A stretch of DNA of 64,000 nucleotides from Candidatus Bathyarchaeum sp. (lineage in GTDB: Archaea > Thermoproteota > Bathyarchaeia > Bathyarchaeales > Bathyarchaeaceae). Positions 3,373-64,000 of this stretch are shown here, piece by piece; within the stretch, counting starts at the first letter, position 1, and the number at the start of each line of letters is the position of its first letter. The stretch covers positions 64,444 through 128,443 of the forward strand of contig JAOZIB010000018.1 of NCBI GenBank assembly GCA_026014565.1, read 5' to 3'. Made by a program: the position numbers and the translations under genes. Under the pieces are notes generated by a model. The model was given only the letters and a program-made list of their open reading frames with translations, was not told the DNA's origin and did no database searches.

Positions 3373-4281
3373 TCAAGCTTTTGTTTTTTTGTTCAAGTTC
3401 GAAAGAACTACATTTACAAGTTCTTCTTCATGGTGTGCTTTCGAGTCTTCTATGATTTTGGGAAGGGGGTCATTCAAGTCTTTTAGGAAGGAGTATTCTT
3501 TGATCACAGTGTTGATTATGTCTTTTTTTGATGGAAGATTCCCTTTTCGCACTAGTCTTTTGAGGTCTTCCCAATCATATTCTTCTTTTGCCAATCTGTC
3601 AAGTAACATTTCTGGGTTGAATGGGTCTCGAGCATTCCAGCATTTGATAACTGCCAATGTCTTAACTAGGTCTTTATTGTAGGGTCGATTAGCAAATAAG
3701 TACAGATCATAAAGGTCTCTGCTACGTATTCTTTGGAATGCAGCTCTGATTTTCTCAGCTAGCAGTTCCTCTTTTTGTAGGCATTTAACAGGAAAATTTT
3801 GAAATTCACAGAATTTGAAATACATCTCTTCTATGAGGCAAAGTTCATCCGTAGAAAAGACAGGTTTTTCTCTGTAACTAACTTGAAGCTCAAATCTAGA
3901 ACCTGGATTCCATTCATGTTGGTATTCAACAACTGCAAGATAAGATTCGAAGCCAACATTTTCATCTATGATTTTGAAATCTATGCCGTAATGGGTTTTG
4001 TTGTCGAATAGTTGCTTGAGTTTGTTTCCAAGCTCTTCAAGGGTTATGTTTAAGCTGGTGAAATCAAGGTCCATAGAGAATCTTCCTGTTTTGCCAAAGT
4101 ATGTTTTCTTTAGACAAGTTCCTCCTTTGAAGGCTAATTGTGGTAAGATTGTACCCGAGAGGATGTGAAGCACATATGTGAGTGCGATATCACGTTCAGC
4201 GATGTCTTCTCTTACTTTACTTGATCGGGCGTAGAAGTTTACGTGTTTTCTTTCTAGCATAATTATTTCACCGTACTTCAA
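3373..4281 (-). CDS. Nucleotidyltransferase AbiEii/AbiGii-family toxin
   Basis: 302 aa. LAFKGGTCLKKTYFG...RFSMDLDFT matches the GGTAL..Y...RFSEDIDF signature of AbiEii toxins. Overlaps the upstream AbiEi-like gene by 14 nt. Confidence 0.75.
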   Translation of the reverse strand: MKYGEIIMLERKHVNFYARSSKVREDIAERDIALTYVLHILSGTILPQLAFKGGTCLKKTYFGKTGRFSMDLDFTSLNITLEELGNKLKQLFDNKTHYGIDFKIIDENVGFESYLAVVEYQHEWNPGSRFELQVSYREKPVFSTDELCLIEEMYFKFCEFQNFPVKCLQKEELLAEKIRAAFQRIRSRDLYDLYLFANRPYNKDLVKTLAVIKCWNARDPFNPEMLLDRLAKEEYDWEDLKRLVRKGNLPSKKDIINTVIKEYSFLKDLNDPLPKIIEDSKAHHEEELVNVVLSNLNKKTKA

Positions 4282-5494
4282 TTTCGCTTAGAAGACGTTC
4301 CCGGGGCACATTGTTTATGATGTTCCACTCTTTTGATAACTTTCCCTTTTTGGGTTTTTTGGAGTCTAGGTATATTGTGGTTTTTCCTACGTGTTCAGAC
4401 AGCTTGTCTTTAAGTGGTTGAGAAAATGGTTTAGTGAGTTTCTCGTTTTCTAAAAAGTCGATTAGGAAGCCCATTCTTTGTATGAGAGAATGGGATTTCA
4501 TTCGTATTGCGTAGTTTACAAGTTTTTCTTGTTTGACTCTGGGTAGAGCTCTCCATAGTATTCCTGCTAGGTGTTCAGTTCCTCCTGTGTATTTTGGTTT
4601 GTCAAATGAGTCGACAAGGGATTTTTCGGGTTCAGCCATCAAAACTTGAGTGTCGAAGATTTGCTCTTTTTTGTATCCAAAGAATTTTCTTTTGGATAAA
4701 GTGATGAATTTGAAGGTGGTTCCTTCCCATGTGATTTCTGGTTTTTTCTTGGTTGTTGCTATAAAGAGTGTGTAGGGCATCTGTGTAGTGAAGCCGTAGT
4801 GGCTGTTTGATGTGTAATAACTGAAATAGTAGGGTTTGATGAGGCTGGCGCCTATAATGAAGGAGTTTGATGGAGGAACCCTTTCGGGGTAACCATAACT
4901 AAGTGGTATAAACTGGTAGAGTCCACTGGTGACTCTTTCTAACCAATTTTTTTGTTCAAGGTTATGCAGCAAATAATGTGCGTACTCGATGGAGCAATCT
5001 AGGGTTTCTTGTACATCTGATGCTCGAATAGTTGTTTTGTTTTCAGATTCCCATTTAGCGACTAATCTAGCTTCTTCTGGCGATAACTTTTGGGAATTAT
5101 GCTCTTGTATCCCTTGTCGTTTTAACTCGTGTAGCTTTTGTTCTGTAATTCCTATTTGTTTGTAATCGAGTAGTTTCACTGGAAGTTTTTTCAGTTCTTT
5201 CCTAACCGTTGGGTTTACTTCAGGGGCTATTATTAGTAAATTGAAATTCTTTAGAGGAGGCTCGATGTTGGAGATTGCAGCATACATGTTGATTATCTGG
5301 GTAAGTTGTTTTCGACCTATTTTGCTTCCTTTAACTTCAACGAAAACGTCATTTCCATCTTTGTCTTTGAGATGAAAATCTGCTTTGATTTGGCCTGGTA
5401 AAACCTCATTTACAGCTAATAGAGAGTAATCTTTGAATATATTCGGGATTTCTCTAGAAATGTACGCCTCCAAAGAGTACTCCAATTGTTTCAC
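4268..5494 (-). CDS. AbiEi-family antitoxin/wHTH regulator with N-terminal PD-(D/E)xK nuclease-like domain
   Basis: 408 aa. The C-terminal ~270 aa look like wHTH + AbiEi antitoxin domain (LYQFIP...GASLIKPYYFSYYTSNSHYGFTTQMP...EPEKSLVDSFDKP.YTGG). The N-terminal ~100 aa contain D(x)n..VFVEVKGSK, a PD-(D/E)xK-like motif. Confidence 0.65.
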   Translation of the reverse strand: MKQLEYSLEAYISREIPNIFKDYSLLAVNEVLPGQIKADFHLKDKDGNDVFVEVKGSKIGRKQLTQIINMYAAISNIEPPLKNFNLLIIAPEVNPTVRKELKKLPVKLLDYKQIGITEQKLHELKRQGIQEHNSQKLSPEEARLVAKWESENKTTIRASDVQETLDCSIEYAHYLLHNLEQKNWLERVTSGLYQFIPLSYGYPERVPPSNSFIIGASLIKPYYFSYYTSNSHYGFTTQMPYTLFIATTKKKPEITWEGTTFKFITLSKRKFFGYKKEQIFDTQVLMAEPEKSLVDSFDKPKYTGGTEHLAGILWRALPRVKQEKLVNYAIRMKSHSLIQRMGFLIDFLENEKLTKPFSQPLKDKLSEHVGKTTIYLDSKKPKKGKLSKEWNIINNVPRERLLSEIEVR

Positions 5495-5953: not shown

Positions 5954-5975
5954 GTGGGCCTGGAGAGATTTGAAC
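5954..5975. repeat. att direct repeat (tRNA-proximal copy)
   Basis: Identical 22-mer to 3239-3260. Covers the acceptor 3' strand and the T-arm 3' half of tRNA-Ile. Confidence 0.75.
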
Positions 5976-6029
5976 TCTCGACCTTTCGGTTATCAGCCGA
6001 ACGCTCCAGCCGTACTGAGCTACAAGCCC
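5955..6029 (-). tRNA. tRNA-Ile (anticodon GAU)
   Basis: Reverse complement folds as GGGCTTG TA GCTC AGTACGGCTG GAGC G TTCGG CTGATAA CCGAA AGGTC GAGAG TTCAAAT CTCTC CAGGCCC A. All stems pair. CCA is not encoded. Confidence 0.9.
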
Positions 6030-10252: not shown

Positions 10253-10498
10253 TCAGCCGACTAATTTTTTTGAGGGGGTTGTGAGTGAAAATCTTCTCTT
10301 ACCCACCAAATAGCCTATGGAGGCTCCGACACTGGGAGCTATAACATTCATGATAATTGTAACCTCTAAAGCCCCCAAATAATGACTTGTAGCAAATCCC
10401 GTAGGTAAGGTGATAATCATGAATAAGAATAGAGTTGCAAATGGTGCCAACAAAGCCCCAACTAGAATTAATGCTATTCTGGTTTTCAGCTTATACAT
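10253..10498 (-). CDS. Small membrane protein (two predicted TM helices)
   Basis: 81-aa ORF, strongly hydrophobic (IALILVGALLAPFATLFLFMIITL; IIMNVIAPSVGASIGYLVG). No recognisable family. Confidence 0.3.
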   Translation of the reverse strand: MYKLKTRIALILVGALLAPFATLFLFMIITLPTGFATSHYLGALEVTIIMNVIAPSVGASIGYLVGKRRFSLTTPSKKLVG

Positions 10499-10841
10499 TC
10501 AATCACATATATCGTAATATATAATATATTATGATGCTTGTTAAATATAAACATAGCAAATTAATTGCTGATTTTCAGAGAGAACAACTAATCGGCATAA
10601 TCAATTGATTAAATTACTGTAGAAAGCTAGAATCACAAGTATGTTTTCATCAGAATAAAAAGTTGTTTTCAACATAGAACTACTATTAGTATACTAAGGT
10701 ATACCGAACAAACGTGTGAACAAAATAATTCCAGAAAAACATAATGATGCGAAAAGAGGGCTCCCCACACAAAATTACTAGTAAAACAAGCAATACTACC
10801 CAAAGAATTCCTTTTTGTTTGACGAATCTATTAAACAACCG

Positions 10842-10862
10842 ATGTTTGGTTAATCCAACCAC
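10842..10862. promoter_or_regulatory. Weak fourth copy of the TGGnTGG-N5-CCATCCA operator-like motif, next to an ATTTAAAT TATA-like box
   Basis: atgtttggttaatccaaccac + atatttaaat resembles the cobN site ttggatggataatccaaccaa + atatttaaaa. One half-site is degenerate. Confidence 0.3.
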
Positions 10863-10924
10863 ATATTTAAATCCAACATCAAAACAAGTAACTATTACAA
10901 AACCATACAGGAATCCACAATAGA

Positions 10925-11332
10925 TTGAAGCGCCAACACAAAATGGATCTTATAGAATTCTTTCAAGAAAACAACATTATAGTGAAAAATGGTTTTTTTC
11001 AGTTTAAAGATATTAGAAAAGGCACTCAAAGAAACCCACAAAAACTTCCCGCACATTCACCCAGAATAATAAAGGACATAAAAAAAATATTCACATTATT
11101 CCGTGAAAATAAGATTTCAGTAAGTAGTGTTAGTAAACCAGTCCTAGTTGCAATAATTCAAGAAAGATTAGGCTACACAAGAACATGGAGTTACACCATA
11201 GCAGGCTGTATCGACTATTTACTAGAATTCCACAAATCAAACAAAATTCCCCAAGAAATTGTGCAAGAACTGAATGCTGATGCTTCCTCAAATAACCAAA
11301 AAATTTCTCACAAGACAGCTTTGTTAGAATAA
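10925..11332 (+). CDS. Hypothetical protein (135 aa)
   Basis: Only long ORF in this gap, on the same strand and just upstream of the 2-domain binding-protein gene. No recognisable motifs. Confidence 0.35.
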   Translation: MKRQHKMDLIEFFQENNIIVKNGFFQFKDIRKGTQRNPQKLPAHSPRIIKDIKKIFTLFRENKISVSSVSKPVLVAIIQERLGYTRTWSYTIAGCIDYLLEFHKSNKIPQEIVQELNADASSNNQKISHKTALLE

Positions 11333-11515
11333 TCAAGATTTTGGACAACATTTTTCAACATGAAAAAATAGGCGTCTTGGTCAGGGAAGTAAAATTTCGA
11401 CACAAATTAAGTAGTAACAACTTGCACGTCAAAGAGATTTGTAAAAAGATCCGCTAATTGAGTGTTAAGTAGATTAAACTGTGATTCAACTCTCATTGAA
11501 CCAAATCTTATATAG

Positions 11516-11536
11516 TTGGGTGGATAATCCATCCAC
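11516..11536 (+). promoter_or_regulatory. Operator-like inverted repeat immediately downstream of a TATA box (CTTATATAG), upstream of the 2xSBP gene
   Basis: TTGGGTGGATAATCCATCCAC. Same sequence pattern and identical spacing to the TATA box as the sites at 18576-18596 and 63765-63785. Confidence 0.6.
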
Positions 11537-11601
11537 TCAAAGATTGAAAACGTGACTAAACATGGTAAATCCTTTGTTAAATTTAGAAGTTGATGTGATA
11601 G

Positions 11602-13626
11602 ATGAGTAGACTTGTTGACACTAAGAATAAAAAAATCATTCTAGGGACAATTCTCTTACTAGTGATTGTTGGCGGCTCTTATGGTGCTTATGCCATACTT
11701 AATCCCATGCAATCAAACGACCCTTCTGAACAAAACTCAGTTTTAACACTTACAGATTATAAAGACGTTAATGTTACCGTTAATCTTCCTGTAGAACGTG
11801 TTGCTTGTCTTAGTGGTGGTTTGACGGAGATTTTTTGTACTTTAGGGGGTCAAGACAAGATTGTTGCACGCATTGACAGCGTAATTTTTCCGCCTTCAAT
11901 TTTGGATGTGACCTCTTTGGCTGCAGCTGCTCGTGACATTAGTGCAGAAGCGTTGCTTGATATGGACCTTGATTTGGTTATTGCCGATACTGCCTTCTCT
12001 GATGATAATCGAGCAGCAATTGAAGCAGCTGGTGTGCCCGTTATTATCGAAACTACAGGGGATCTTGCCCGAATTAACACAATCATAACTAATTTTGGTC
12101 TAATTTTAGACAATTCAGAAAAAGCAACTGAAGTATTAGAGAATATAGAATACTACACTAACCTTGTTGATGAACGTATTACGAACGCGAATTTGGCCAC
12201 AGAAGAAAAAACTACGTTCTATGTTGAATTAACGAATGAATGGCGTAGTAGATCTGACGCGAGCGTCCAAGGTGCTCTTTTGACTAGCAGTGGCGGAATA
12301 AACATTGTTACCGATACCTCAGTTATGTCTCCAACCGTAAGTGCGGAGGTTGTTGTAGAATCAAACCCTGATGTGATTATCAAGCTGTATTCCAAAAGCA
12401 CTAGTTTAACAGATTATCAAGAGGCATACGCTGAGATAATGAATCGGACCGCGTTACAAGAGACAACTGCCGTAACTTCCGGTCAAGTGTATGTCTGTTA
12501 TTGGTATCTTACCACGGGAGAGATGTATCCTGTTGGTGAGTTATATTTTGCTAAGTGGCTTTACCCTGACTTGTTTGCTGATATTGACCCCAGTGCAATC
12601 CACGCGGAATTGGTTCAAGATTACTATGGAATTGACTTAACTGGAACATGGGCGTATCCATCTGCGAATGAACCTGAACCAACCGAGCCAGAGACTGTTA
12701 CTGTTGTAGATGTAAACGGTGACGAAATCACGGTGAGCCTTCCTGTGGAGCGTGTTGTCAGCATTTCAAACGGTTTAACAGAGGCCATCTGTGCTCTAGG
12801 TTGTGAAGATTTGATTGTGGGACGTGACTCAGGTTCTACTTTTCCGTCTTCCATTTTGTCGATAGATGAAGTAGGTGCCTCATCGTATACGCCAAATGTG
12901 GAAATGGTATTAGAAAAAGAGCCCGATTTGGTGGTTGCAGGTACTATGTTAAACTCTAATCAAGAAGTGTTAACTCAACTGAGGAATGCTGGCATCCCCG
13001 TTTATATTGAAAAGGTAAGCAATTACACACGAATGACACAATTCATCAACGACATGGGACTTGTCTTGGATAAAGAAACAGAAGCAACAGAGCTTGTTGA
13101 GTATCTTAATGAAATTTACAACCTTGTTACAGAACGTGTTGCAACTGTTATGGAGAGCGAGAAACCCATAGTTTACGCCGAATGGAACAATATGTGGCGG
13201 ACATTTAAGGAAGGGCAAGGAGTTGACTTGATGATTGTTGCTGCTGGCGGAATAAACATCGCTACGGTTGGAGAAGAAATGAATTCTAGTGGATACATAA
13301 GTCCTGAGCACGTAGTTGAAGTAAATCCTGACGTCATTCTTAAGATGCCGACTGGAGTAGACGGTGATGTAACTGTCCTTCAAGATGCCCGAGATGAGTT
13401 GCTTAGCCGAACTGCATTGAGTGAGACCACTGCAGTCCTAAATGAGCGTGTTTATGTCTATGACTCTACGATATACACAGGAATGCGTAATCCAGTTGGT
13501 CTGCTCTTCTTTGCTAAGTGGTTACATCCTGACTTGTTTGCAGATATTGATCCTATTGTGGTACAGGCGGACCTGATTCAGGAATTCTTTGGAATAGACT
13601 TAGAGGCAGTCTACGTATATCCATAA
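11602..13626 (+). CDS. Membrane-anchored tandem two-domain periplasmic-binding protein (class III, FecB/BtuF-like)
   Basis: 674 aa. N-terminal TM anchor, then two ~300-aa homologous units, each starting ...V(T/S)(V/L)(N/S)LPVERV...GL(T)E and ending FAKWL(Y/H)PDLFADIDP...FFGIDL. The units are joined by a PEPTEPE linker. Confidence 0.75.
   Translation: MSRLVDTKNKKIILGTILLLVIVGGSYGAYAILNPMQSNDPSEQNSVLTLTDYKDVNVTVNLPVERVACLSGGLTEIFCTLGGQDKIVARIDSVIFPPSILDVTSLAAAARDISAEALLDMDLDLVIADTAFSDDNRAAIEAAGVPVIIETTGDLARINTIITNFGLILDNSEKATEVLENIEYYTNLVDERITNANLATEEKTTFYVELTNEWRSRSDASVQGALLTSSGGINIVTDTSVMSPTVSAEVVVESNPDVIIKLYSKSTSLTDYQEAYAEIMNRTALQETTAVTSGQVYVCYWYLTTGEMYPVGELYFAKWLYPDLFADIDPSAIHAELVQDYYGIDLTGTWAYPSANEPEPTEPETVTVVDVNGDEITVSLPVERVVSISNGLTEAICALGCEDLIVGRDSGSTFPSSILSIDEVGASSYTPNVEMVLEKEPDLVVAGTMLNSNQEVLTQLRNAGIPVYIEKVSNYTRMTQFINDMGLVLDKETEATELVEYLNEIYNLVTERVATVMESEKPIVYAEWNNMWRTFKEGQGVDLMIVAAGGINIATVGEEMNSSGYISPEHVVEVNPDVILKMPTGVDGDVTVLQDARDELLSRTALSETTAVLNERVYVYDSTIYTGMRNPVGLLFFAKWLHPDLFADIDPIVVQADLIQEFFGIDLEAVYVYP
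11737..13623 (+). repeat. Intragenic tandem duplication (2 units of roughly 930 nt)
   Basis: The two SBP domains share long colinear motifs at protein level. The unit boundary is near 12665 (WAYPSANEPEPTEPE). Confidence 0.6.
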
Positions 13627-14747: not shown

Positions 14748-16349
14748 TTATTCATTTGTACTTTCGAGTATCCCTTCAATATCAAGGTAAAGTCGCTGTA
14801 ATTCTTTTTTCATTTCGTCTGTTGCGTCCCACAGGTTACGTTGAATAGCTTCCAAAAGCCGCTCTGTCATATTCTGCAAAGCGTAAGGATTCACGTCTTT
14901 CAACCATTCTTGCATTTCTTTGTTTAAAGTGTATTTTTCAGCCAGTTTCTCGTACATCCAGTCTTCAACAGTTTCCGTTGTAGCATCCCAACCAAAAACA
15001 AAATCAACGGCTCTAGAAAGTTCAGCGGCTCCTTGATAGCCTTGTTTCATCAAGCCTTCAATGTATTTTGGGTTAAGAAGTCGGCTACGAAGAACGTGAC
15101 AGGTTTCTTCTGCGGTGTTTCTAACTTTTATTCTGTCGGGGTCAGCGCCATCACTACAATAAGAAGAGGGCTTTTTTCCAGTTAGCGTTTTTATGGAGGT
15201 AATCATTCCACCATGAAAGTCATACCAGTCATCACACGATAGTATGTCGTATTCTCGTGAGGCTTCATTTTTTACGGTCAAGTTAATCTTGCTAAGCCGT
15301 AATTTGAACTGTTCAGGAACAGAAACCCCATAAGTTTTGCGACTGTAAGCGAAACTGCCCCAGTTTAAGTAAATCTCCGTCAAGTCCTTTTGATCTTTCC
15401 AGTTTTTAGAATCAATTGCCCTTGTTAATCCACAGCCATAAGCTCCCGGACGGGCACTAAAAATTCGGTAACTTGCTTCTTCTTTTGCTTTTTTTTCATC
15501 TTCACCTTGTGTTGTGCGTTCTTTAACTTCGTTTTTCACATGTTTAGCAACGTAGTTGTTTTCCTCGGACTCTTCTAGATCAGCCACCAAGTTCACTGCG
15601 TCATCAATAAGGTGAACAATGTTCGGAAAAGTGTCTCTGAAAACACCACTAATGCGAACGGTAACATCAATTCGAGGACGTTTTAGTTTTTCAAGGGGAA
15701 TTGGTTCAATTCCAACAACCCGTCCGCTGCCTTCTTCCCACACAGGTTTTACGCCTAATAAATACAGGATTTCAGCTATGTCGTCACCTTTTGTTGTCAT
15801 TGTGACCATGCCCCAGATTATCATGCCTACGCTCTCAGGATATTTTCCTTCATCTTTGATGTAACGCTCAAGCAAAGCATCAGCCATTTTGATACCCACT
15901 TGCCAAGAAGCACGAGCAGGTATAGCCAAAGGGTCAACAGAGTAAAAATTGCGCCCCGTTGGAAGAATATCAGCCATACCCCGAGTTATTGCACCCGAAG
16001 GACCTGCAGGAACATAATTACCCTCACAAGCGGATAGAATATTTGTTAACTCGTCAGTAGTTTTATTCAAATTAGGCACAAGAAAACGTTCAACATACAA
16101 AAGACACTCTCGCACAGACGTGCTTTTTTTGCCCAAGACTTCTTCAACAATATCGTCGATGCTTTTTGCACTAAAATTGGAATCATTAAACCGTTTCATC
16201 AACTCAAGACAAAGCTCACTTAACTCTTTGATTACATCACTGTTAGTTCGCCCATCTAAACGCAATTTTCCTCTATTTTGTAGCAGTTCATCGTAGTCGT
16301 AACCCTTCAGTTCTGCCAACTGCTTGCCGTAAAGAAGGAACCGCCCCAT
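14748..16349 (-). CDS. cobN: CobN-like chelatase large subunit, C-terminal part (after frameshift)
   Basis: 533 aa. Its reading frame overlaps the upstream 739-aa ORF by 62 nt. The combined length of ~1270 aa equals a full CobN. Confidence 0.75.
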   Translation of the reverse strand: MGRFLLYGKQLAELKGYDYDELLQNRGKLRLDGRTNSDVIKELSELCLELMKRFNDSNFSAKSIDDIVEEVLGKKSTSVRECLLYVERFLVPNLNKTTDELTNILSACEGNYVPAGPSGAITRGMADILPTGRNFYSVDPLAIPARASWQVGIKMADALLERYIKDEGKYPESVGMIIWGMVTMTTKGDDIAEILYLLGVKPVWEEGSGRVVGIEPIPLEKLKRPRIDVTVRISGVFRDTFPNIVHLIDDAVNLVADLEESEENNYVAKHVKNEVKERTTQGEDEKKAKEEASYRIFSARPGAYGCGLTRAIDSKNWKDQKDLTEIYLNWGSFAYSRKTYGVSVPEQFKLRLSKINLTVKNEASREYDILSCDDWYDFHGGMITSIKTLTGKKPSSYCSDGADPDRIKVRNTAEETCHVLRSRLLNPKYIEGLMKQGYQGAAELSRAVDFVFGWDATTETVEDWMYEKLAEKYTLNKEMQEWLKDVNPYALQNMTERLLEAIQRNLWDATDEMKKELQRLYLDIEGILESTNE

Positions 16350-18507
16350 TGCGCAATCGAGTTAAGGTAACTAGAAACTCTTCCAAACGTTCCCCTGCTG
16401 GTGGTTCACCCAAGATGTGCAAACCATCACTAATCTGTGTGTCCAGCAGTTCATTCAAGTAACCATGCAACAGCTCCAAAAAATCATCAAAATCAGCAAA
16501 CGCATCAGCTTCAGTGACGTTAAGGTCTATGTTTAGTTTGGCTGAAACTACAGTTTCCCAAATTAGTTTTTGCAAAACGGGCAGTTTTTCAGAATCAGCA
16601 ATTTTTGTGTCGTAATACTCTTTTAATTGAACTTCAAGCTGTGCCAATTCTTCATATGTATCAGCATTATGCATCACAGGAATTAGATGGTCAATAAGAC
16701 AACAGTAGCTTCGTCGTTTTGCTTGAGTGCCTTCGCTGGGATTATTGATGATGTATGGATAAATATTGGGCAAATCAGAAATCAATGCATCTGGAAAACA
16801 AGAATTAGATAGAGCCACAGACTTTCCGGGTAACCATTCCAAAGTTCCATGTTTACCAATATGCATTACAACATTAGCCTTGAAAACGTCGCGAATCCAG
16901 CGGTAATATGCATAATAATGATGAGGCATAGAAAGGTCGGGACTGTGATAAACTGCAGCAGGGTTTTCTAAGAAACCGCGAGGAGGTTGCAAACCGATGA
17001 AAACGTTGCCGTTAAGTATTCCTGGAACAAGCAACTTGTTGTTGTAATTGAAAAGTTTACCCGGTGGTGCGCCCCAGTCATGCATCAGTTTTTCTTTAGC
17101 ATCTTGGGATAATTCATCAAACCACTCAGTGTAATGTTCTGTAGAAACTTTTGCTAAAGCCCTCTGGGCAAGTTCTTCAGAACTTAACCATTTACGGTCA
17201 TTGGTCAACCCAGTAAGCACCGTATCCATTAACTCCTGACCGTTTTCAGGCAGGTAATCCAAGGAGTAACCCTGTTCTTTTAATCCCTTCAAAATGTTCA
17301 GGACCGAAACAGAACTGTCAAGTCCAAAGGCTTTGCCGATATTATCGTTTCGAGGAGGATAATTGTGGAAAATTATTGCAACTTTCTTTTCACTGTTTGA
17401 AATGTGCCGCAGTTTTGCCCAGTTTAAACTTAAACGAACTACTTTTGCAACTCTTTCAGGAATAGGTACATGCTTTGTTATTTTGGCTCCTGTCTCAGGG
17501 TTAATTGTTGACATGTCCGTTGTAGCAAGGGGCACCGTAATTATAAAACCGTCAAACTCAGGTAGAGCCACTTGTAAGGGCAAATCAACAACACGCAAAC
17601 CCAGTGGCGTATCGTGCCAGCCTTCAAAAGTATTAAACGTTAAAAGTGCTTTGATGACGGGAACACCCAACTTTTCTAATGCAACTAAATTTTCGGAACC
17701 GCCTGAAGATGAAGTAGACCAAGAATAAGAAAGAGTGCTTATAATCACATCAACCAGTGGTTTGCCGTCTTTCATGAAATAGTTTTCAAGTATCCAGTCA
17801 AATCCCTTTACGCCTAAAGACTCATTTTTTCTGCCGCTAAAAAACACTGGAATTACATTTGCCCCTTGGTTTTCAATTTCTGTAACTAAGCTGTCAACAA
17901 ATAATGTGTTTCCACCTTGCCAATAGCTTTGATGAAACCACACACCCACGGTTAGGCGATTGGGATGAACCTTTTTTTCGAGATACTCATCCAAATCTGG
18001 AACATAACCAAAGTCAGGGTGGTAAATGCCTTGCCACTTTGAAGGAACGGGAACATCAACATTGCATGAAGTCCCAACAAAACGATTTGCCAGATAAAAC
18101 AAAAGATTCTCAAAATTAGTTTGTCCGCCATAATTGATGTAAAAAAGAATGTTATGGTAATCTTCAGTGTTTACTGTAGAAAGCTTGAGATAGTCCTTGT
18201 TTTGCCTAAAAGAAGAAGCAACAACAGCAACTGGAACTCCTGCATCCTTCACGCAAGTTATGAGTTTGTTAAATTCTGGGGGTTCACTCATTAAATGCAA
18301 AATAACAATGTTTGATTTCGGGGCAAACTCAATAAATTCATCTATGTTGCTTGAAGTTTGACTTGTTTCATCTCCAAGACTCCGATTAGCAAAAACTCGA
18401 ACCGTTACGGGGATGGTACGTTCTTTGTTTACTTTATTGATGGCAGAAATTAAAGGTAAAGCATCGGTTTGAGTCGTTGTAACAAAAGCCACTTTGAGTT
18501 TTTTCAC
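16288..18507 (-). CDS. cobN: CobN-like chelatase large subunit, N-terminal part (before frameshift)
   Basis: 739 aa. Typical CobN regions are present (VAIIFHNYPPRNDNIGKA, HIGKHGTLEWLPGK). It ends ...PSLRQAVGRTEGLRLR* where the +1 frame continues AELKGYDYDELL. Confidence 0.75.
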   Translation of the reverse strand: MKKLKVAFVTTTQTDALPLISAINKVNKERTIPVTVRVFANRSLGDETSQTSSNIDEFIEFAPKSNIVILHLMSEPPEFNKLITCVKDAGVPVAVVASSFRQNKDYLKLSTVNTEDYHNILFYINYGGQTNFENLLFYLANRFVGTSCNVDVPVPSKWQGIYHPDFGYVPDLDEYLEKKVHPNRLTVGVWFHQSYWQGGNTLFVDSLVTEIENQGANVIPVFFSGRKNESLGVKGFDWILENYFMKDGKPLVDVIISTLSYSWSTSSSGGSENLVALEKLGVPVIKALLTFNTFEGWHDTPLGLRVVDLPLQVALPEFDGFIITVPLATTDMSTINPETGAKITKHVPIPERVAKVVRLSLNWAKLRHISNSEKKVAIIFHNYPPRNDNIGKAFGLDSSVSVLNILKGLKEQGYSLDYLPENGQELMDTVLTGLTNDRKWLSSEELAQRALAKVSTEHYTEWFDELSQDAKEKLMHDWGAPPGKLFNYNNKLLVPGILNGNVFIGLQPPRGFLENPAAVYHSPDLSMPHHYYAYYRWIRDVFKANVVMHIGKHGTLEWLPGKSVALSNSCFPDALISDLPNIYPYIINNPSEGTQAKRRSYCCLIDHLIPVMHNADTYEELAQLEVQLKEYYDTKIADSEKLPVLQKLIWETVVSAKLNIDLNVTEADAFADFDDFLELLHGYLNELLDTQISDGLHILGEPPAGERLEEFLVTLTRLRNGAVPSLRQAVGRTEGLRLR

Positions 18508-18575
18508 ACAAATAATCTCCTATCAAACTTGTTTGCATTCAGCTAAGCCAATTTTTGGTTGGCTAGAAGCTTATT

Positions 18576-18596
18576 TTGGATGGATAATCCAACCAA
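18576..18596 (-). promoter_or_regulatory. Operator-like inverted repeat immediately downstream of a TATA box, upstream of cobN
   Basis: Gene orientation reads TTTAAATAT-TTGGTTGGATTATCCATCCAA. Lies about 70 nt upstream of the cobN start. Confidence 0.6.
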
Positions 18597-18701
18597 ATAT
18601 TTAAAAGTTGCCACCTATTAGCTCGATTAACTATGTTGCACGTTCGTGTGAAAAACTAGACTCAAAATTGTTGCCGTAAAGGCTTTAAAAAAATGTTGAA
18701 A

Positions 18702-19979: not shown

Positions 19980-20438
19980 CTAAACATTTTCATCCTCTAA
20001 GGATTCTAACAGGCGACGTAAGGCGAGGCTTAAAGTCAAAAACGTAGTTTGCCCAGACTCAGAACAACTATAAGTTCCCCGACCAGTTTTGGTTATAAAT
20101 CCACCATCACTGAGTTTTCGGGAGTTTTCCCACACAGTTTTTGGATTCAAATCCAGGTCTTTCATGAATTCTGCAAAGTTCATGGTGCTGTCGTCTTCTT
20201 GGACTAGGCGGCGCATCATACGCAGGCGAGTTTGATTGGATAAGGCATCAAACATGCTAGAGAATTTTTCAAAGTCGTCTTCGAAGGCTTCGAACTCTGT
20301 TTCAAGTTGCTCTTTTGACCAGTCCATGGGAGAAAGGGGAACATCCAGAATTACTTTTCCGTCGCGTACTAGCTGCAGTTTAAGTGTCATACTACCTCGT
20401 CCTATATTACCTGTAAGTAACAAGCTACTGCATTTCAT
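19980..20438 (-). CDS. Winged-helix (ArsR-like) transcriptional regulator, co-oriented with hsp20
   Basis: LSNQTRLRMMRRLVQEDDSTMNFAEFMKDLDLNPKTVWENSRKLSDGGFITKTGRGTYS is wHTH-like. The stop is 14 nt before the hsp20 start. The true start may be the internal MTLKLQL. Confidence 0.6.
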   Translation of the reverse strand: MKCSSLLLTGNIGRGSMTLKLQLVRDGKVILDVPLSPMDWSKEQLETEFEAFEDDFEKFSSMFDALSNQTRLRMMRRLVQEDDSTMNFAEFMKDLDLNPKTVWENSRKLSDGGFITKTGRGTYSCSESGQTTFLTLSLALRRLLESLEDENV

Positions 20439-37518: not shown

Positions 37519-37532
37519 ACAGGGTTTTTGCT
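37519..37532. promoter_or_regulatory. Copy 2 of the ACAGGGTTTT(T)GCT motif, overlapping the stop codon of the NrdD-like gene
   Basis: acagggtttttgct; a one-base T insertion relative to copy 1. Confidence 0.3.
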
Positions 37533-54479: not shown

Positions 54480-55349
54480 ATGACAGACATAGAAGAAGAC
54501 GCATATTCTACTATTTTCACTTCTTTGAATCATTTGGTTCGCAGAAAAATCCTTAAAATGCTAGCTGAAGAACCGCGAACGTTCTCAGACATGTTTGAGT
54601 CTCTTGGAATATCTAGCTCTCATTTTAACTATCACCTTGACAACCTCGGAGACTTGGTAAACAAAACAGAAGACGGAAAATACAAACTTTCATTTCTGGG
54701 CGAAGCCGCAATGGCCATGATGTCAAAAGTTGAAGAAGCACCCCAACCCCAAGAAAAAAAACATTCTTCAACATTTCTTATGAAAAATTGGAAGTATTTT
54801 AGTCTCATAATGATAATTGGAATAGCTTTTTTGGCGACGGCTAACCTCATGCAATTTAGCACCTTAGCAAAAATATCAGAGGACAATCAGGACATACTTG
54901 CATCGAATGAATTATTATGGAACCGTTACGCCTCAACGATGATTTCATCAGATGATTCTCCCCGAATATCCAAAATGGAAGCGATTCAAATCGGTCTTAA
55001 AGGAGATTGGAACGAAGAAAGCCTTGAAGGAATGATTGTGGATGCAAAGATAGTGATTTTCAGGTTTGAAACAAAATTAGTCCAGACATCCATAGCAGAA
55101 GAACCAGTTGAGAAATTAATGCCTGTTGCAGTAATTTACGAAATAACTGAAAAGGTAACAAATTATGCTCCATACACCAACAACCACGGAACTTATCATT
55201 ATATTTGGGAAATTACGGTAAGACCAATTCAAGATTATTTAGACAAAGACTTCACAAATGCTCCTTCAGCCATTTACCATGTTGATGCATACGATGCGAG
55301 AACATATCTGAGTCTTTACGAGTTGCTATACATGGACAGCAACAACTAA
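54480..55349 (+). CDS. Membrane-anchored ArsR-like wHTH protein with extracytoplasmic C-terminal domain
   Basis: N-terminal wHTH (RRKILKMLAEEPRTFSDMFESLGISSSHFNYHLDNL...YKLSFLG), a single TM (YFSLIMIIGIAFLATANLM), and a ~160-aa C-terminal domain. Confidence 0.55.
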   Translation: MTDIEEDAYSTIFTSLNHLVRRKILKMLAEEPRTFSDMFESLGISSSHFNYHLDNLGDLVNKTEDGKYKLSFLGEAAMAMMSKVEEAPQPQEKKHSSTFLMKNWKYFSLIMIIGIAFLATANLMQFSTLAKISEDNQDILASNELLWNRYASTMISSDDSPRISKMEAIQIGLKGDWNEESLEGMIVDAKIVIFRFETKLVQTSIAEEPVEKLMPVAVIYEITEKVTNYAPYTNNHGTYHYIWEITVRPIQDYLDKDFTNAPSAIYHVDAYDARTYLSLYELLYMDSNN

Positions 55350-60691: not shown

Positions 60692-63634
60692 TTAAGGATA
60701 CGAATATATTCCCCCAAGTTCGACCCCAAAGAAGTTTTGAATCATTTCTTGATGCACTGCTGCTGGGTCAATATCCACAAAAAGGTCAGGATGCATGCAC
60801 TTAGCAAAACAAAGCAAACCAACAGGGTAACGTATCCCTTGATTAATCAAGTAGTTTATGAGATGCACATTGTCCGCTGTAACTGCTGTTACTCCACTTA
60901 ACACTGTTTCTGCCTTCAACTCGTCTATTTCATTTTGATAACTTGTTACATTGTTGGGAGCGGTCATCAAACTGCTAATTTTTATGATGAAATCAGGATT
61001 TTGCTCCACAATAAATTCAAGACCCACAGTAGTACTAACAATAGAAGAATTAGCAATCATATTTACTCCCCCTGCAGTAGACATAAGTTCACTGACGGGA
61101 TGACTTGGACCAAAGGCACTCCAACCAAGTTTTCGAGGCTTAAGATACACCACGGGTTTTTCAGAAGCTGAAAGAGTTGATATTCGCTCCTCAACCAGAT
61201 TAACATAAGAATGAATCCAGTCAACAAGCTCTGCGGCCTTCTGTTCATTGTCAACGACGTGACCAATAGTAGTTATCATCGATGCGATTAATGAAGTGTC
61301 AACGGGGTTAGCAATGATTAAGGGGACGCCAGCACTTCGGATTTGACTGATAATTTCAGGACTAGAAGTTATCATGGTATCAGCAAGAACCAAATCCGGC
61401 GCCACATCCAACAACAGTTCAACATTAACAAACTTTGAGCTTTCACTTACAACAGGTTTGTCAATCATTGAAGGTGGAAAAATACTATATTCTCCTCTCC
61501 CCACAATCAAATCTTCACCACCTAAGGCGCAAACAACTTCAGTCCAGCCAGTAGTAAGACTGACAATACGGTCTACAGGAAGCGAAACTTCAACTTGTTC
61601 TCCTGTTTCATCCACGTATATAAGACGGTCAGGATGGGTATAGACTCCTTCTAATTTTTCATTAAAGAATTTTTGAATTAGCTCTTGATGCACCATTTTT
61701 GGGTCAATATCATCAAAAAGGGCAGGATGCATCCACTTGGCAAAATACAGTACAAGAACAGGGTAACGTATTCCTTGCACGATTGCACGATGATAATCAT
61801 ATGTATTACCCTCCGTAACTGCGGTCACTGAACTTAACCCTGTTCGACTGAATATCTCATCTATTTCACTTTGATAGAAGGTTACATTTGTGGGAATTGT
61901 TGACAAACTGCTCATTTTTATAATGAAATCAGGGTTGTGTTCCACAATAAATTCAGGACTAACCGTAACAGCTTCTACAGATGAGTTAGTAATCATGTTC
62001 ACTCCACCAGCCATAGAAACAAGGTCATCGATTGGACCTGCTGGACCCCAAGCTAAAGAATTCATCCAACACTCAACATAAACAGACGGCTTTTCACTTG
62101 ATGAAAGAGTTGATGTGCGTTCCTTAACCAAATTTATGTAAAAATCTATCCAGTCGATGAGTTCAGTAGCTTTCTCTTCATTGTCCAAGATATGACCAAG
62201 ATTGCGTATCATAGATTCAACCAGTGAAGTGTCTGCAGTATTTGCAACAATTAAAGGAATACCAAAGTCACGAATTTGACTGATAAGCTCGGGGTTCATT
62301 GTCATCATTTTGTCAGAGAGAACCAAATCAGGCTCCAGTTCTAACAACATCTCAACATTAACATAACGGGAACTTTCACCGACAACAGGTTTTTCAACCA
62401 TCGAAGAAGGAAAAATGCTATCTTCATTTCTCCCCACAATGAGGTCTTCACCACCCAAGGCACAAATAATTTCTGTCCAAGCAGTACTAAGACTGACAAC
62501 ACGCTCTACATTAGCAGGAACCTTAACTGGCTCTCCTGTTTCATCCACATATACATGATCCTCAGGATAAACAAACACACCTGTTAATTCTTCACCAAAA
62601 AATTTTTGAATCAACTCTTCATGCACCGCTGTGGGGTCAATATCCTCAAAAAGGGCAGGATACATCCACTTGGCGAAGGAAACCAAGCTAACAGGATAAC
62701 GTATTCCTTGAATAATCAAGTAATTATAAAAGCATACATTATTTTCCATGATTGCTGTAACTTCACTTAATTCTGGTTGACTCATTATAGCATCAACTTC
62801 ACTTTGATAATAAGTTACGTTGGTGGGAACGGTCATCAACTTGCTCATTTTTATTATAATGTCAGGATTTTGCTCTATAACAAACTCAGAACTCACGGTA
62901 ATACCTTCTATGGAAGAATCTGTGACAATGTTTGTTCCCCCTGCAGTAGAAATAAGGTCAGTGCATGGATGTAAGGGACCAAAAGCAAGCATGTCTTTTC
63001 GAGATATAAGGAAAACTGAAAGTTTTTCACTTTCCGAAAGAGTGGATGTACGGTCTTCAACAAGATTCACATAATAATCAATCCAGTCAACAAGCTCTGC
63101 GGCTTTGTCTTCATTGTTCACGATGCGCCCACAATTATTGATCATGGAAATAACTAACGAAATATTTGCAGGGTTCCCAATGATCAAGGGTATACCGGCA
63201 TCACGTATCTGATTAATGATTTCAGGGCTCATCATTACGTCAGCAAGCACCAAATCTGGCTCTTGTTCCAACACCAATTCGACATTAACGTATCGTGAGC
63301 TCTCAGCCACAACAGGCTTTTCAACCATTGAAGAAGGAAAGGTGCTATACTCGTTTCGGGCTACAATCAAGTCTGCACCTCCCAAGGCGCAGACAATGTC
63401 GGTCCAGCCAGTAGTAAGAGTGACAATTCGATTCACAGGAAGTGTTATGTTCACTTGTTCTCCGGTTGCGTCCACCATTGAAATGATTTCTGGCTCTGTT
63501 GACTCAGGCTCGGAAGGTTCAGGTCCACCACCCAAGAACAAGATATAAACTCCATAAGAGCCGCCGATAATCACTGCAAGAAGGATTATACCTAAAACAA
63601 TTTTTTTGTTTTTACTATTGAAAAGTGCACTCAT
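60692..63634 (-). CDS. Membrane-anchored tandem three-domain periplasmic-binding protein (class III, FecB/BtuF-like)
   Basis: 980 aa. The N-terminal TM anchor is similar to that of the 11602 gene. Three ~310-aa units follow, each with LPV(N/D)RIV(T/S)L(T/S)T(G/A)WTE..CALGG.DLIV.R...S.FP.SM..KPVV.ESS and FAKWMHPALF.DIDP. Confidence 0.8.
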   Translation of the reverse strand: MSALFNSKNKKIVLGIILLAVIIGGSYGVYILFLGGGPEPSEPESTEPEIISMVDATGEQVNITLPVNRIVTLTTGWTDIVCALGGADLIVARNEYSTFPSSMVEKPVVAESSRYVNVELVLEQEPDLVLADVMMSPEIINQIRDAGIPLIIGNPANISLVISMINNCGRIVNNEDKAAELVDWIDYYVNLVEDRTSTLSESEKLSVFLISRKDMLAFGPLHPCTDLISTAGGTNIVTDSSIEGITVSSEFVIEQNPDIIIKMSKLMTVPTNVTYYQSEVDAIMSQPELSEVTAIMENNVCFYNYLIIQGIRYPVSLVSFAKWMYPALFEDIDPTAVHEELIQKFFGEELTGVFVYPEDHVYVDETGEPVKVPANVERVVSLSTAWTEIICALGGEDLIVGRNEDSIFPSSMVEKPVVGESSRYVNVEMLLELEPDLVLSDKMMTMNPELISQIRDFGIPLIVANTADTSLVESMIRNLGHILDNEEKATELIDWIDFYINLVKERTSTLSSSEKPSVYVECWMNSLAWGPAGPIDDLVSMAGGVNMITNSSVEAVTVSPEFIVEHNPDFIIKMSSLSTIPTNVTFYQSEIDEIFSRTGLSSVTAVTEGNTYDYHRAIVQGIRYPVLVLYFAKWMHPALFDDIDPKMVHQELIQKFFNEKLEGVYTHPDRLIYVDETGEQVEVSLPVDRIVSLTTGWTEVVCALGGEDLIVGRGEYSIFPPSMIDKPVVSESSKFVNVELLLDVAPDLVLADTMITSSPEIISQIRSAGVPLIIANPVDTSLIASMITTIGHVVDNEQKAAELVDWIHSYVNLVEERISTLSASEKPVVYLKPRKLGWSAFGPSHPVSELMSTAGGVNMIANSSIVSTTVGLEFIVEQNPDFIIKISSLMTAPNNVTSYQNEIDELKAETVLSGVTAVTADNVHLINYLINQGIRYPVGLLCFAKCMHPDLFVDIDPAAVHQEMIQNFFGVELGGIYSYP
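60695..63490 (-). repeat. Intragenic tandem triplication (3 units of roughly 930 nt)
   Basis: Unit boundaries lie near 61630 (GVYTHPDR|LIYVDETGE) and 62570 (GVFVYPED|HVYVDETGE). Units are visibly similar along their whole length. Confidence 0.7.
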
Positions 63635-63764: not shown

Positions 63765-63785
63765 CTGGATGGATAAACCATCCAG
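63765..63785 (-). promoter_or_regulatory. Perfect 8-5-8 inverted repeat immediately downstream of a TATA box, upstream of the 3xSBP gene
   Basis: Gene orientation reads TTTATATAT-CTGGATGGTTTATCCATCCAG, with arms CTGGATGG/CCATCCAG. Confidence 0.65.
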
Positions 63786-64000
63786 ATATATAAAACATAT
63801 CGACATAGATATGTCGAAAGCGATGGTATTAGATTCAGCTAAACACCACAATAAGTGAAAAGAAAATACAAAACATAACCATTAATCACCACAATCAAAA
63901 TGGTGTGCGGAGCGGGGGGCTAAAACAAGAACCCCGATGAAACAGAGTCGTGAAGCCCAAATGTCTTGTCTTAGGCTTACTGTTTTTCTTTTGATTTTTG

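What the first reader, a model, noticed from the sequence alone, without database searches (positions are those of the whole stretch)
11506..11536. Shared TATA-adjacent inverted repeat (TGGnTGG-N5-CCATCCA) upstream of cobN and both multi-domain binding-protein genes: a small regulon
In gene orientation the three promoters align without gaps:
cobN: CTTTTAAATATTTGGTTGGATTATCCATCCAAAAT (rc of 18575-18609)
2xSBP: ATCTTATATAGTTGGGTGGATAATCCATCCACTCA (11505-11539)
3xSBP: GTTTTATATATCTGGATGGTTTATCCATCCAGAAT (rc of 63762-63796)
The TATA box, its spacing to the repeat and the ATCCATCCA half-site are identical in all three. The 3xSBP copy is a perfect 8-5-8 palindrome. A site immediately downstream of the TATA box is the classic position for an archaeal repressor that blocks RNAP recruitment. 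cobN is unrelated in sequence to the SBP genes, so the similarity is not just promoter duplication. A weaker fourth copy lies at 10842-10862. This implies co-regulation of a chelatase and surface binding proteins, perhaps for corrinoid or metal-chelate acquisition. Candidate regulators in the window are the PadR encoded downstream of the 3xSBP-methyltransferase genes (59168-59644) and the uncharacterised 135-aa protein at 10925-11332.
Basis: seen in the sequence. Interest (0 to 1): 0.7.

Follow-up and report, generated by a model that had tools for sequence, protein, structure and literature searches.

The report
Archaeal vitamin B12 regulon operator

Summary
Four copies of TGGnTGGWTWATCCAnCCA lie in the window, each exactly 2 nt after an 8-bp TATA box. 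They precede cobN, a 2x and a 3x Peripla_BP_2 gene, and (weaker) a small ORF.

101 were archaeal, from Bathyarchaeia, Nitrososphaeria, Caldarchaeales, Korarchaeia, Hadarchaeota, Methanomethylicia and Methanomassiliicoccales. Of these, 85 of 101 are intergenic, against 3 of 19 bacterial hits.

The genes downstream are homologues of the cobalamin ECF S-component CbrT (44 loci), transcobalamin-like DUF4430, BtuF-like binding proteins with FecCD, CobZ, CobN-CbiZ operons, class III ribonucleotide reductase, MtaB and McrB. This matches the content of a bacterial B12-riboswitch regulon, but the control element is a DNA site.

The only DNA-binding family that recurs beside the site is wHTH-DUF4443 (fold of PDB 2P8T/PH0730, function unknown). 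Loci chosen by that protein alone carry the palindrome about 55 nt upstream in 23 of 36 cases, always facing a cbrT-like gene.

PadR and the small ORF are not supported as regulators. The window encodes no DUF4443 gene. The effector, and whether the protein represses or activates, are inferred. A 2003 prediction of an archaeal 'CBL-box' could not be retrieved for comparison.

The parts
11517..11535 (.). Operator copy 1, TGGGTGGATAATCCATCCA, in the promoter of the 2x binding-protein gene
   Evidence: weight-matrix score 28.2; identical in the near-identical MAG contig L162
11507..11514 (+). TATA box CTTATATA, 2 nt upstream of operator copy 1
   Evidence: read; the same TATA-operator spacing dominates in other archaea
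11602..13626 (+). Membrane-anchored protein with two Peripla_BP_2 (BtuF/heme/siderophore class) domains; target gene with a 66-nt leader
   Evidence: Pfam PF01497 x2. The ligand cannot be resolved by sequence. Homologues lie downstream of the same site in 11 other loci.
18577..18595 (.). Operator copy 2 (TGGTTGGATTATCCATCCA on the minus strand), in the cobN promoter
   Evidence: weight-matrix score 34.2
18598..18605 (-). TATA box TTTAAATA, 2 nt upstream of operator copy 2
   Evidence: read
14748..18507 (-). cobN (cobaltochelatase large-subunit family). In this window it is split into ORFs 16288-18507 and 14748-16349 by a +1 frame change near 16290-16330.
   Evidence: Pfam and NCBIfam; junction. 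A 99%-identical intact 1252-aa version exists (P0241). Orthologues lie in site-controlled SBP-FecCD-ABC-CobN-CbiZ operons.
63766..63784 (.). Operator copy 3 (TGGATGGTTTATCCATCCA on the minus strand), in the promoter of the 3x binding-protein gene; a perfect 8-5-8 palindrome when the flanking C/G is included
   Evidence: weight-matrix score 31.4
63787..63794 (-). TATA box TTTATATA, 2 nt upstream of operator copy 3
   Evidence: read
60692..63634 (-). Membrane-anchored protein with three Peripla_BP_2 domains; target gene with a 131-nt leader
   Evidence: Pfam PF01497 x3; NCBIfam
10843..10861 (.). Weaker operator copy 4 (TGGTTGGATTAACCAAACA on the minus strand)
   Evidence: 2 mismatches; weight-matrix score 18.2 against a shuffle maximum of 12.0; target uncertain
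10864..10871 (-). TATA box TTTAAATA, 2 nt from copy 4 in the leftward orientation. The core ATTTAAAT is palindromic, so it may serve either direction.
   Evidence: read
10943..11332 (+). Small ORF (129 aa from Met7) 82 nt to the right of copy 4; a possible target, with no evidence that it is the regulator
   Evidence: 9 relatives of about 100 aa, all starting at Met7; no Pfam or NCBIfam hit; no significant fold match

Best explanation
The four palindromes are operators of a corrinoid (vitamin B12) regulon that is conserved across much of the Archaea.

Proposed mechanism:
1. A dimeric winged-helix protein of the DUF4443/PH0730 family, encoded elsewhere in this genome, binds the 19-bp dyad TGGnTGGAT-W-ATCCAnCCA. 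The half-site centres are one helical turn apart.
2. The dyad starts 2 nt after the TATA box, so it fills the space between TATA and the transcription start. Occupancy should block RNA polymerase recruitment.
3. When corrinoid is plentiful, the protein shuts off cobN and the two surface-anchored multi-domain BtuF-like binding proteins. In other archaea it also shuts off cbrT-like ECF uptake genes, DUF4430 binders, cobZ, cbiZ and the B12-independent ribonucleotide reductase nrdD.
4. In function this replaces the bacterial cobalamin riboswitch.

Shown here: the sites; their fixed promoter geometry; their conservation and positional bias; the corrinoid-related gene content; the two-way association with DUF4443 genes.

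Inferred: that DUF4443 binds the site; that a corrinoid is the effector; that the bound form represses.
For: 1. Sites and geometry.
3. Positional bias: 85 of 101 archaeal sites are intergenic and 68 of 101 abut a TATA-like octamer, whereas 16 of 19 bacterial hits lie inside long ORFs. TATA-to-palindrome spacing is mostly 0-3 nt, and start codons often follow within 0-10 nt.
4. Gene content: 85 of 101 archaeal loci have a classified neighbour. These are CbrT-like 44, DUF4443 15, Peripla_BP_2 11, DUF4430 8 (17 in the operon census), McrB 8, NrdD 5, CobZ 5 and MtaB 2.
5. S-component identity: its profile best matches PDB 6FNP chain A, the CbrT subunit of the characterised cobalamin/cobinamide ECF transporter, at E=1.2e-10, against 0.008 for riboflavin RibU (PMC5997447).
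6. CobZ: NCBIfam TIGR03161, E=2e-39.
7. cobN orthologues sit in site-controlled operons with FecCD, ABC and CbiZ genes.
8. The categories match bacterial B12-riboswitch regulons (PMC3766115).
9. Regulator: DUF4443 genes occur in 22 of 101 archaeal motif loci and 0 of 19 bacterial ones. DUF4443 is the only recurrent DNA-binding family among 291 neighbouring genes censused.
10. Reverse test: of 36 metagenome loci chosen by the protein alone, 23 carry the palindrome ending 48-58 nt before the gene, and all 22 scanned face a leaderless cbrT-like gene.
11. Fold: an N-terminal winged helix like DNA-bound CggR, DtxR and MarR, plus a C-terminal domain seen only in 2P8T.
Against: - Nothing here is experimental.
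- The window has no DUF4443 gene, and I could not check the rest of its genome.
- Many of the protein-selected loci belong to one Bathyarchaeia clade, so the 23 of 36 are not independent events.
- More distant DUF4443 relatives often lack an adjacent site.
- Thermococcales orthologues (PH0730, PF1113, the T. kodakarensis protein) sit upstream of pyrF with no palindrome nearby.
- The C-terminal domain resembles no known B12-binding fold and has no invariant His or Cys.
- The window's binding proteins score equally poorly against heme, siderophore and BtuF models.
- mcrB and mtaB membership does not fit simple repression by B12. At mcrB the site lies upstream of a conserved BRE/TATA.
- The motif-selected loci were chosen with a near-consensus pattern, and the scan was truncated, so regulon size and motif variability are underestimated.
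Confidence: 0.6

Rival explanations
1. The local PadR (59168-59644) or the small ORF (10943-11332) is the regulator of a small, window-specific regulon.
For: PadR lies two genes downstream of the 3x binding-protein gene. A PadR homologue (48% identity) lies 2.3 kb from a site-controlled binding-protein gene in L105. The small ORF is next to copy 4, and its C-terminal part looks helix-turn-helix-like by eye.
Against: The motif occurs in over 100 archaeal species, but PadR is near it in only 1 of 120 loci, where it heads its own operon. No PadR family appears among the recurrent neighbours. The small ORF has 9 relatives in 1.8 billion representative proteins, none in the motif loci, and no significant structural match.
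Confidence: 0.04
2. The regulon responds to a metal (iron, cobalt or nickel) or to heme, through a metal-dependent repressor, rather than to a corrinoid.
For: Peripla_BP_2 proteins commonly bind siderophores or heme, and the window's domains score similarly against heme, siderophore and BtuF models. CobN-family proteins handle metal insertion. A 19-bp palindrome is also the format of DtxR/IdeR boxes (from memory).
Against: The commonest targets are CbrT homologues, DUF4430, CobZ, CbiZ-containing operons, NrdD and MtaB with corrinoid proteins, none of which is expected in an iron regulon. No DtxR, Fur or NikR family member recurs near the sites or occurs in the window. No dedicated cobalt or nickel transporter family appeared in the censuses.
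Confidence: 0.1
3. The site is a corrinoid-regulon operator, but it is read by some other, unlinked transcription factor. DUF4443 is then merely a co-regulated target, for example a corrinoid-handling protein with a winged helix.
For: Most motif loci (79 of 101) show no DUF4443 gene within the 8 kb held. Thermococcales orthologues have a different context. The assignment rests on adjacency alone.
Against: DUF4443 has a canonical DNA-binding winged helix with an invariant recognition helix. It is divergently transcribed from the main target across the site, which is the classic autoregulated layout. No alternative DNA-binding family recurs.
Confidence: 0.18
4. The palindrome acts at the RNA level, as a hairpin in the 5' leader, or is a repeat or mobile-element remnant rather than a protein operator.
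For: It is a perfect or near-perfect inverted repeat that could fold if transcribed.
Against: In dozens of loci the start codon lies 0-10 nt after the palindrome and a TATA box 0-3 nt before it, so the repeat should lie upstream of the transcript. The sequence itself, not just the pairing, is conserved across phyla. No Rfam family matches anywhere in the window except one tRNA. The copies are single, at promoters, with no flanking repeat structure.
Confidence: 0.02

Closest known systems
Bacterial cobalamin riboswitch regulons (Rfam RF00174)
   Same: Same logic and gene categories: B12 and precursor transporters, biosynthesis and salvage genes, and isozymes that replace B12-dependent enzymes (PMC3766115). 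Here these are cbrT-like, BtuF/FecCD, DUF4430, cobN, cobZ, cbiZ and nrdD.
   Different: The control element is a DNA palindrome in the core promoter, not an RNA aptamer. No Rfam riboswitch is present in the window. No cobalt-transporter class was seen. mcrB and mtaB are extra members.
RbkR, the archaeal riboflavin regulator (Rodionova et al. 2017, PMC5397151)
   Same: An archaeal winged-helix protein fused to a small-molecule-binding domain. It uses palindromic operators in front of vitamin synthesis and ECF-type uptake genes, is autoregulated, and stands in for a bacterial riboswitch.
   Different: The operators are unrelated (TTAC-N10-GTAA, TnnCA-N4-TGnnA and others). The sensor domain is a riboflavin kinase, not DUF4443. 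The targets are riboflavin genes.
PH0730 of Pyrococcus horikoshii (PDB 2P8T), DUF4443 family
   Same: Same two-domain architecture and fold as the candidate regulator: profile E=1.6e-34 and TM-score 0.72. The recognition helix is near-identical (GEGxVRT).
   Different: No function is assigned. Thermococcales orthologues sit upstream of pyrF with no TGGATGG palindrome in 12 kb. About 24% identity.
'CBL-box' for a hypothetical archaeal B12 regulator (Rodionov et al., J Biol Chem 2003; recalled from memory)
   Same: A predicted DNA signal upstream of B12 genes in some archaea, attributed to an unknown protein regulator.
   Different: I could not obtain the paper or its consensus, so identity with this motif is untested. 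To my knowledge no regulator protein was assigned there, and the lineages found here were not sequenced in 2003.
Archaeal repressors with operators between TATA and the start site (e.g. MDR1, Phr, NrpR, TrmB at some promoters)
   Same: Same operator position relative to the TATA box, and the same presumed mechanism of blocking RNA polymerase recruitment (established knowledge).
   Different: Different protein families, motifs and effectors.
CarH/AerR-type B12-binding transcription factors of bacteria
   Same: Protein-based transcriptional control that uses a cobalamin ligand.
   Different: Those use the canonical Rossmann-type B12-binding domain as a light sensor. The DUF4443 domain shows no such fold, and the regulon here is nutritional.

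Membership tests
Archaeal core-promoter repressor operator | Dyad-symmetric site of about 15-20 bp | tested here: met
   A 19-bp palindrome in four copies. The matrix has 12 near-invariant positions, although partly constrained by the search pattern.
Archaeal core-promoter repressor operator | Site lies between the TATA box and the transcription start | tested here: inconclusive
   TATA-2 nt-palindrome in all four window copies. Elsewhere the start codon follows within 0-10 nt. No start site is mapped, and the RNA runs were uninformative.
Archaeal core-promoter repressor operator | Conserved in orthologous promoters and positionally biased | tested here: met
   85 of 101 archaeal sites are intergenic, against 3 of 19 bacterial. 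Sites are present at cobN/SBP operon promoters in L163, L164 (degenerate) and L165.
Archaeal core-promoter repressor operator | A protein binds the site and lowers transcription | not testable with these tools
   Needs EMSA, ChIP or in vitro transcription.
Cobalamin (B12) regulon | Controls B12 or precursor transporters | tested here: met
   CbrT homologues in 44 loci, best PDB match 6FNP CbrT; DUF4430; Peripla_BP_2 with FecCD.
Cobalamin (B12) regulon | Controls B12 biosynthesis or salvage genes | tested here: met
   cobN in the window; CobZ TIGR03161; CbiZ in cobN operons.
Cobalamin (B12) regulon | Controls B12-independent isozymes | tested here: met
   Class III ribonucleotide reductase nrdD plus its activase in 5 loci. 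This does not hold in the window itself, where there is no site at its two nrdD genes.
Cobalamin (B12) regulon | Expression responds to cobalamin | not testable with these tools
   No culture or informative transcriptome is available.
Cobalamin riboswitch (RF00174) | Conserved RNA aptamer in the 5' leader | tested here: not met
   The Rfam scan of the whole window finds only one tRNA.
RbkR operator | Lineage consensus such as TTAC-N10-GTAA or TnnCA-N4-TGnnA in front of riboflavin genes | tested here: not met
   The consensus differs. The targets are corrinoid genes, and the S-component matches CbrT far better than RibU.
PadR-controlled operator | A PadR gene linked to the site across genomes | tested here: not met
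   1 of 120 loci, not adjacent; absent from the recurrent families.
DtxR/IdeR iron box | A DtxR-family gene and iron-uptake targets; box TTAGGTTAGCCTAACCTAA (from memory) | tested here: not met
   No DtxR family member in the window or among recurrent neighbours. The half-site sequence is different.
DUF4443/PH0730-family regulator as cognate factor | Gene linked to the site in both search directions | tested here: met
   22 of 101 motif loci. 23 of 36 protein-selected loci, with the site 48-58 nt upstream. The divergent partner is always cbrT-like.
DUF4443/PH0730-family regulator as cognate factor | Present in the genome that carries the window | not testable with these tools
   Absent from the 64-kb window.
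CBL-box (Rodionov 2003) | Published consensus sequence | not tested
   The paper is not held. The resemblance rests on memory of the abstract only.

The most novel reading that the evidence does not exclude
DUF4443/PH0730-family proteins are the missing archaeal corrinoid sensors. On this reading, a new corrinoid-binding fold is fused to a winged helix. The holo-protein represses uptake, salvage and nrdD promoters, where the site lies between TATA and the start. It activates others, where the site lies just upstream of BRE/TATA, as at the mcrB operon of Methanomassiliicoccales and perhaps at mtaB of Methanomethylicia. That would tie methyl-dependent methanogenesis to B12 supply.
Probability: 0.3. 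Interest if true: 0.85.

Novelty: new member of a known kind. Interest (0 to 1): 0.72.

Why it matters
Archaea lack cobalamin riboswitches, and I found no described mechanism by which they sense B12. If this holds, it gives three things:

1. A widely conserved cis-element that flags corrinoid-related genes in uncultured Bathyarchaeia, ammonia-oxidising Nitrososphaeria, Korarchaeia and methanogens. Among the flagged genes are uncharacterised ones, such as the multi-domain surface binding proteins, DUF4430, DUF6580 and CobN-type chelatases in anaerobes.
2. A testable function for a domain of unknown function that already has a crystal structure.
3. A possible regulatory link between B12 availability and methane formation.

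B12 exchange shapes microbial communities, so a genomic marker of who scavenges it is practically useful.

Tried and rejected
- **RbkR operator.** Rejected, because the published consensus sequences are unrelated.
- **PadR and the small ORF as regulators.** Rejected on distribution and fold.
- **DUF4443 gene in the window.** None found by HMM search of all six frames.
- **Sites at the window's two nrdD genes.** None.
- **Ligand of the window's binding proteins from sequence.** Heme, siderophore and BtuF models all score below their cut-offs.
- **Transcript and start-site evidence.** RNA-type runs gave only sparse contigs of about 200 nt at depth about 2, one of them spanning the TATA box, so nothing usable.
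- **Palindrome at Thermococcales DUF4443 loci.** Absent.
- **Finding the window's own contig by exact protein look-up.** The 2x binding protein is not on record. A 99%-identical contig was reached through CobN instead.
- **First metagenome scan with the broad DUF4443 alignment.** It failed for lack of a conserved stretch. A tighter alignment worked.
- **Literature.** No hits for DUF4443, the motif string, CBL-box or an archaeal B12 regulator. The 2003 JBC paper is not held.

Full report
**1. The observation.**
The palindromes lie at these positions:
- 11517-11535, before the 2x Peripla_BP_2 gene (11602-13626, +)
- 18577-18595, before cobN (18507 down to 14748, -)
- 63766-63784, before the 3x Peripla_BP_2 gene (63634 down to 60692, -)
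- 10843-10861, the weaker copy

Pfam confirms the gene identities. The pattern TGGNTGGN5CCATCCA with up to two mismatches gives 9 strand-matches against 1.10 expected, and none of 100 shuffles reaches 9. A weight matrix built from sites in other archaea scores the four copies 34.2, 31.4, 28.2 and 18.2. The next-best window position scores 3.0, and the best score in 20 shuffles is 12.0. All four copies share one layout: an 8-bp TATA box, 2 nt, then the 19-bp dyad. At the fourth copy this layout points leftward, away from the small ORF. Its TATA core ATTTAAAT is itself symmetric, so the direction is open.

**2. The window.**
It comes from an anaerobic archaeon with about 40% G+C. Genes present include HcyBio, two nrdD, a pst operon, carAB, argGH and acs. 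Its CobN is 58-66% identical to Bathyarchaeia proteins. It is 99% identical to an intact 1252-aa CobN on an NCBI archaeal MAG contig (P0241, GCA_049366835.1), which carries the same three sites.

**3. The motif is conserved far beyond this window.**
I scanned about 186,000 species genomes with TGGNTGGWTWATCCATCCA. For uniform base composition I estimate about 70 chance matches in the whole collection. By record title, 101 are archaeal or ambiguous and 19 bacterial. The archaeal ones come from Bathyarchaeia, Nitrososphaeria, Conexivisphaerales, Caldarchaeales, Korarchaeia, Methanomethylicia, Hadarchaeota, Wolframiiraptor and Methanomassiliicoccales.

The bacterial hits behave like chance, since 16 of 19 lie inside long ORFs. 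Of the archaeal hits, 85 of 101 are intergenic and 68 of 101 abut a TATA-like octamer within 5 nt. TATA-to-palindrome spacing is mostly 0-3 nt, and in many loci a start codon follows within 0-10 nt. This places the dyad between TATA and the start of a leaderless transcript.

**4. What the site controls.**
I clustered the first ORF on each side and annotated representatives:
- a membrane protein of about 190 aa in 44 loci
- wHTH-DUF4443 in 15
- Peripla_BP_2 in 11, the cluster that also holds both window proteins
- DUF4430 in 8
- McrB in 8, all Methanomassiliicoccales
- class III ribonucleotide reductase NrdD in 5
- a PgpA-like protein in 5
- MtaB in 2

In all, 85 of 101 archaeal loci have a classified neighbour, against 1 of 19 bacterial loci, and that one is a generic ABC ATPase.

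A Pfam census of 141 TATA-oriented operon genes ranks DUF4430 (17), ECF S-components (16), Peripla_BP_2 (7), NRDD (5), radical SAM (4) and FecCD (3) at the top. The profile of the 190-aa membrane protein best matches PDB 6FNP chain A at E=1.2e-10. Riboflavin RibU reaches only 0.008. 6FNP is ECF-CbrT, the characterised cobalamin/cobinamide transporter, and its only chain of that size is the S-component CbrT (PMC5997447). The PgpA-like protein is alpha-ribazole phosphatase CobZ (TIGR03161, E=2e-39, below the curated cut-off).

**5. The window's own targets fit this picture.**
In other Bathyarchaeia, cobN orthologues lie in operons of the form ChlI/D-like chelatase, Peripla_BP_2, FecCD, ABC ATPase, CobN, CbiZ. 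Each operon has a site at its promoter:
- L163: a site scoring 29.5 precedes an SBP-CobN pair. The SBP really starts at a TTG 100 nt after the site.
- L165: a site scoring 28.1 precedes SBP-FecCD-CobN, and one scoring 12.1 precedes the CobN-CbiZ operon.
- L164: a degenerate copy (7.2) sits in the canonical TATA-adjacent position.

The ligand of the window's binding-protein domains cannot be read from sequence. The corrinoid assignment rests on context. The gene categories match those of bacterial cobalamin-riboswitch regulons, namely biosynthesis, B12 transport and isozymes of B12-dependent enzymes (PMC3766115). The window itself has no riboswitch.

**6. The regulator.**
- The window encodes PadR, ArsR/DUF7347-type and HTH_3-CBS proteins, but no DUF4443 protein.
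- PadR is near the motif in only one other locus, where it heads its own operon.
- The small ORF has no homologue in any motif locus, only 9 relatives of about 100 aa among 1.8 billion representatives, and no significant fold match.
- DUF4443 genes are present in 22 of 101 archaeal motif loci, 15 of them directly adjacent, and in 0 of 19 bacterial loci.
- Among a further 150 regulator-sized neighbours, DUF4443 is the only recurrent DNA-binding family.

I then ran the test in reverse. 38 metagenome loci were picked by the protein alone, and 36 have usable upstream sequence. Of these, 23 carry the palindrome ending 48-58 nt before the gene. This includes every locus with at least 55% identity and two at 40%. 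In all 22 scanned, the gene on the other side of the site is a cbrT-like S-component that starts -1 to +6 nt after the palindrome in most. The conserved core is a cbrT-like/DUF4443 divergon sharing one operator.

**7. What the candidate regulator looks like.**
The family matches PDB 2P8T (PH0730, function unknown) over its full length at E=1.6e-34. An AlphaFold model (pLDDT 90) matches 2P8T with a TM-score of 0.72. Its N-terminal winged helix matches DNA-bound CggR, DtxR and MarR domains. Its C-terminal alpha/beta domain has no other informative relative and is not a canonical B12-binding domain. No paper in the searchable library mentions DUF4443. PH0730 appears only in a list of transcription-factor families.

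**8. Caveats.**
- Thermococcales orthologues (PH0730, PF1113, the T. kodakarensis protein) sit upstream of pyrF and have no palindrome within 12 kb. The family may not have a single function.
- Many of the protein-selected loci belong to one clade.
- The motif scan used a near-consensus pattern and was truncated.
- At the eight mcrB promoters, a conserved BRE/TATA-like element lies 6-8 nt downstream of the palindrome. The site is then just upstream of the core promoter, an activator-type position. A holo-protein that represses uptake genes and activates mcr would be coherent, but this is inference.
- No transcript evidence could be obtained.

**9. Comparison with what is known.**
The nearest precedents are the archaeal vitamin regulators such as RbkR, whose operators are unrelated. 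I recall that Rodionov et al. 2003 predicted a 'CBL-box' for a hypothetical B12 regulator in some archaea. The paper is not held and no searchable paper quotes it, so I could not compare consensus sequences. On the evidence reachable here, the site and its link to DUF4443 are undescribed. I file it as a new member of a known kind: a metabolite-responsive archaeal winged-helix regulator with a core-promoter operator.

**10. Verdict.**

| Claim | Confidence |
|---|---|
| The operator is real and conserved | about 0.9 |
| The regulon is corrinoid-related | about 0.8 |
| DUF4443 is the cognate factor | about 0.7 |
| Corrinoid-dependent repression at these promoters | about 0.5 |

The combined statement is given 0.6.

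Noticed in passing
window 16288-16349 (junction of ORFs 16288-18507 and 14748-16349, minus strand): cobN is split by a +1 frame change with no homopolymer at the junction. A 99%-identical MAG contig encodes an intact 1252-aa CobN, so this is a strain-specific pseudogene or an assembly error.
   Followed up: partly
window 10253-10862, minus strand: The canonical TATA-operator order at copy 4 points leftward, where there is no convincing gene for about 340 nt. An 81-aa membrane ORF (10253-10498) then follows with its own TATA box. This could be a regulated non-coding or leader transcript.
   Followed up: no
L018, L025, L029, L037, L042, L054, L066, L093 (Methanomassiliicoccales): The same palindrome sits upstream of mcrB in eight genomes, followed 6-8 nt later by a conserved BRE/TATA-like element. 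This is an activator-type arrangement that would link methyl-coenzyme M reductase expression to this regulator.
   Followed up: partly
L159, L160, L161 (T. kodakarensis, P. furiosus PF1113, P. horikoshii PH0730): In Thermococcales the DUF4443 gene lies directly upstream of pyrF, a PUA-domain gene and a cytidylyltransferase-like gene. There is no TGGATGG palindrome nearby, although the recognition helix is almost the same as in the TACK proteins.
   Followed up: partly
window 37531-39753 (-), 19980-20438 (-), 54480-55349 (+): A weak DUF7347 winged-helix match occurs three times in the window, once as an N-terminal extension of the second NrdD paralogue, ahead of its ATP-cone.
   Followed up: no
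L105 (record labelled Candidatus Acidoferrum, Acidobacteriota): The contig has an archaeal-style TATA-operator promoter before a Peripla_BP_2 gene, and a PadR 48% identical to the window's. It looks like an archaeal contig mis-binned into a bacterial MAG.
   Followed up: no
L056 1788-1806 and 2816-2834: Two identical sites with identical 25-nt flanks lie 1028 bp apart, each followed by a cbrT-like ORF. This is a tandem duplication or an assembly repeat.
   Followed up: no
window 3373-5494 (-): An AbiEii nucleotidyltransferase toxin and AbiEi-like antitoxin pair, next to tRNA-Ile (5954-6029).
   Followed up: no
window 59796-60602 (-): The SAM methyltransferase downstream of the 3x binding-protein gene has its best, though far sub-threshold, NCBIfam match to the corrinoid-protein-associated methyltransferase CpaM. 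Unrelated methyltransferases also recur near sites in other loci.
   Followed up: no
L001, L060, L108 (Hadarchaeota and an unclassified archaeon): Here the site precedes a DUF6580 membrane protein instead of a CbrT-like one, with a DUF4443 gene 1-2 kb downstream. DUF6580 may be an alternative corrinoid uptake component.
   Followed up: no
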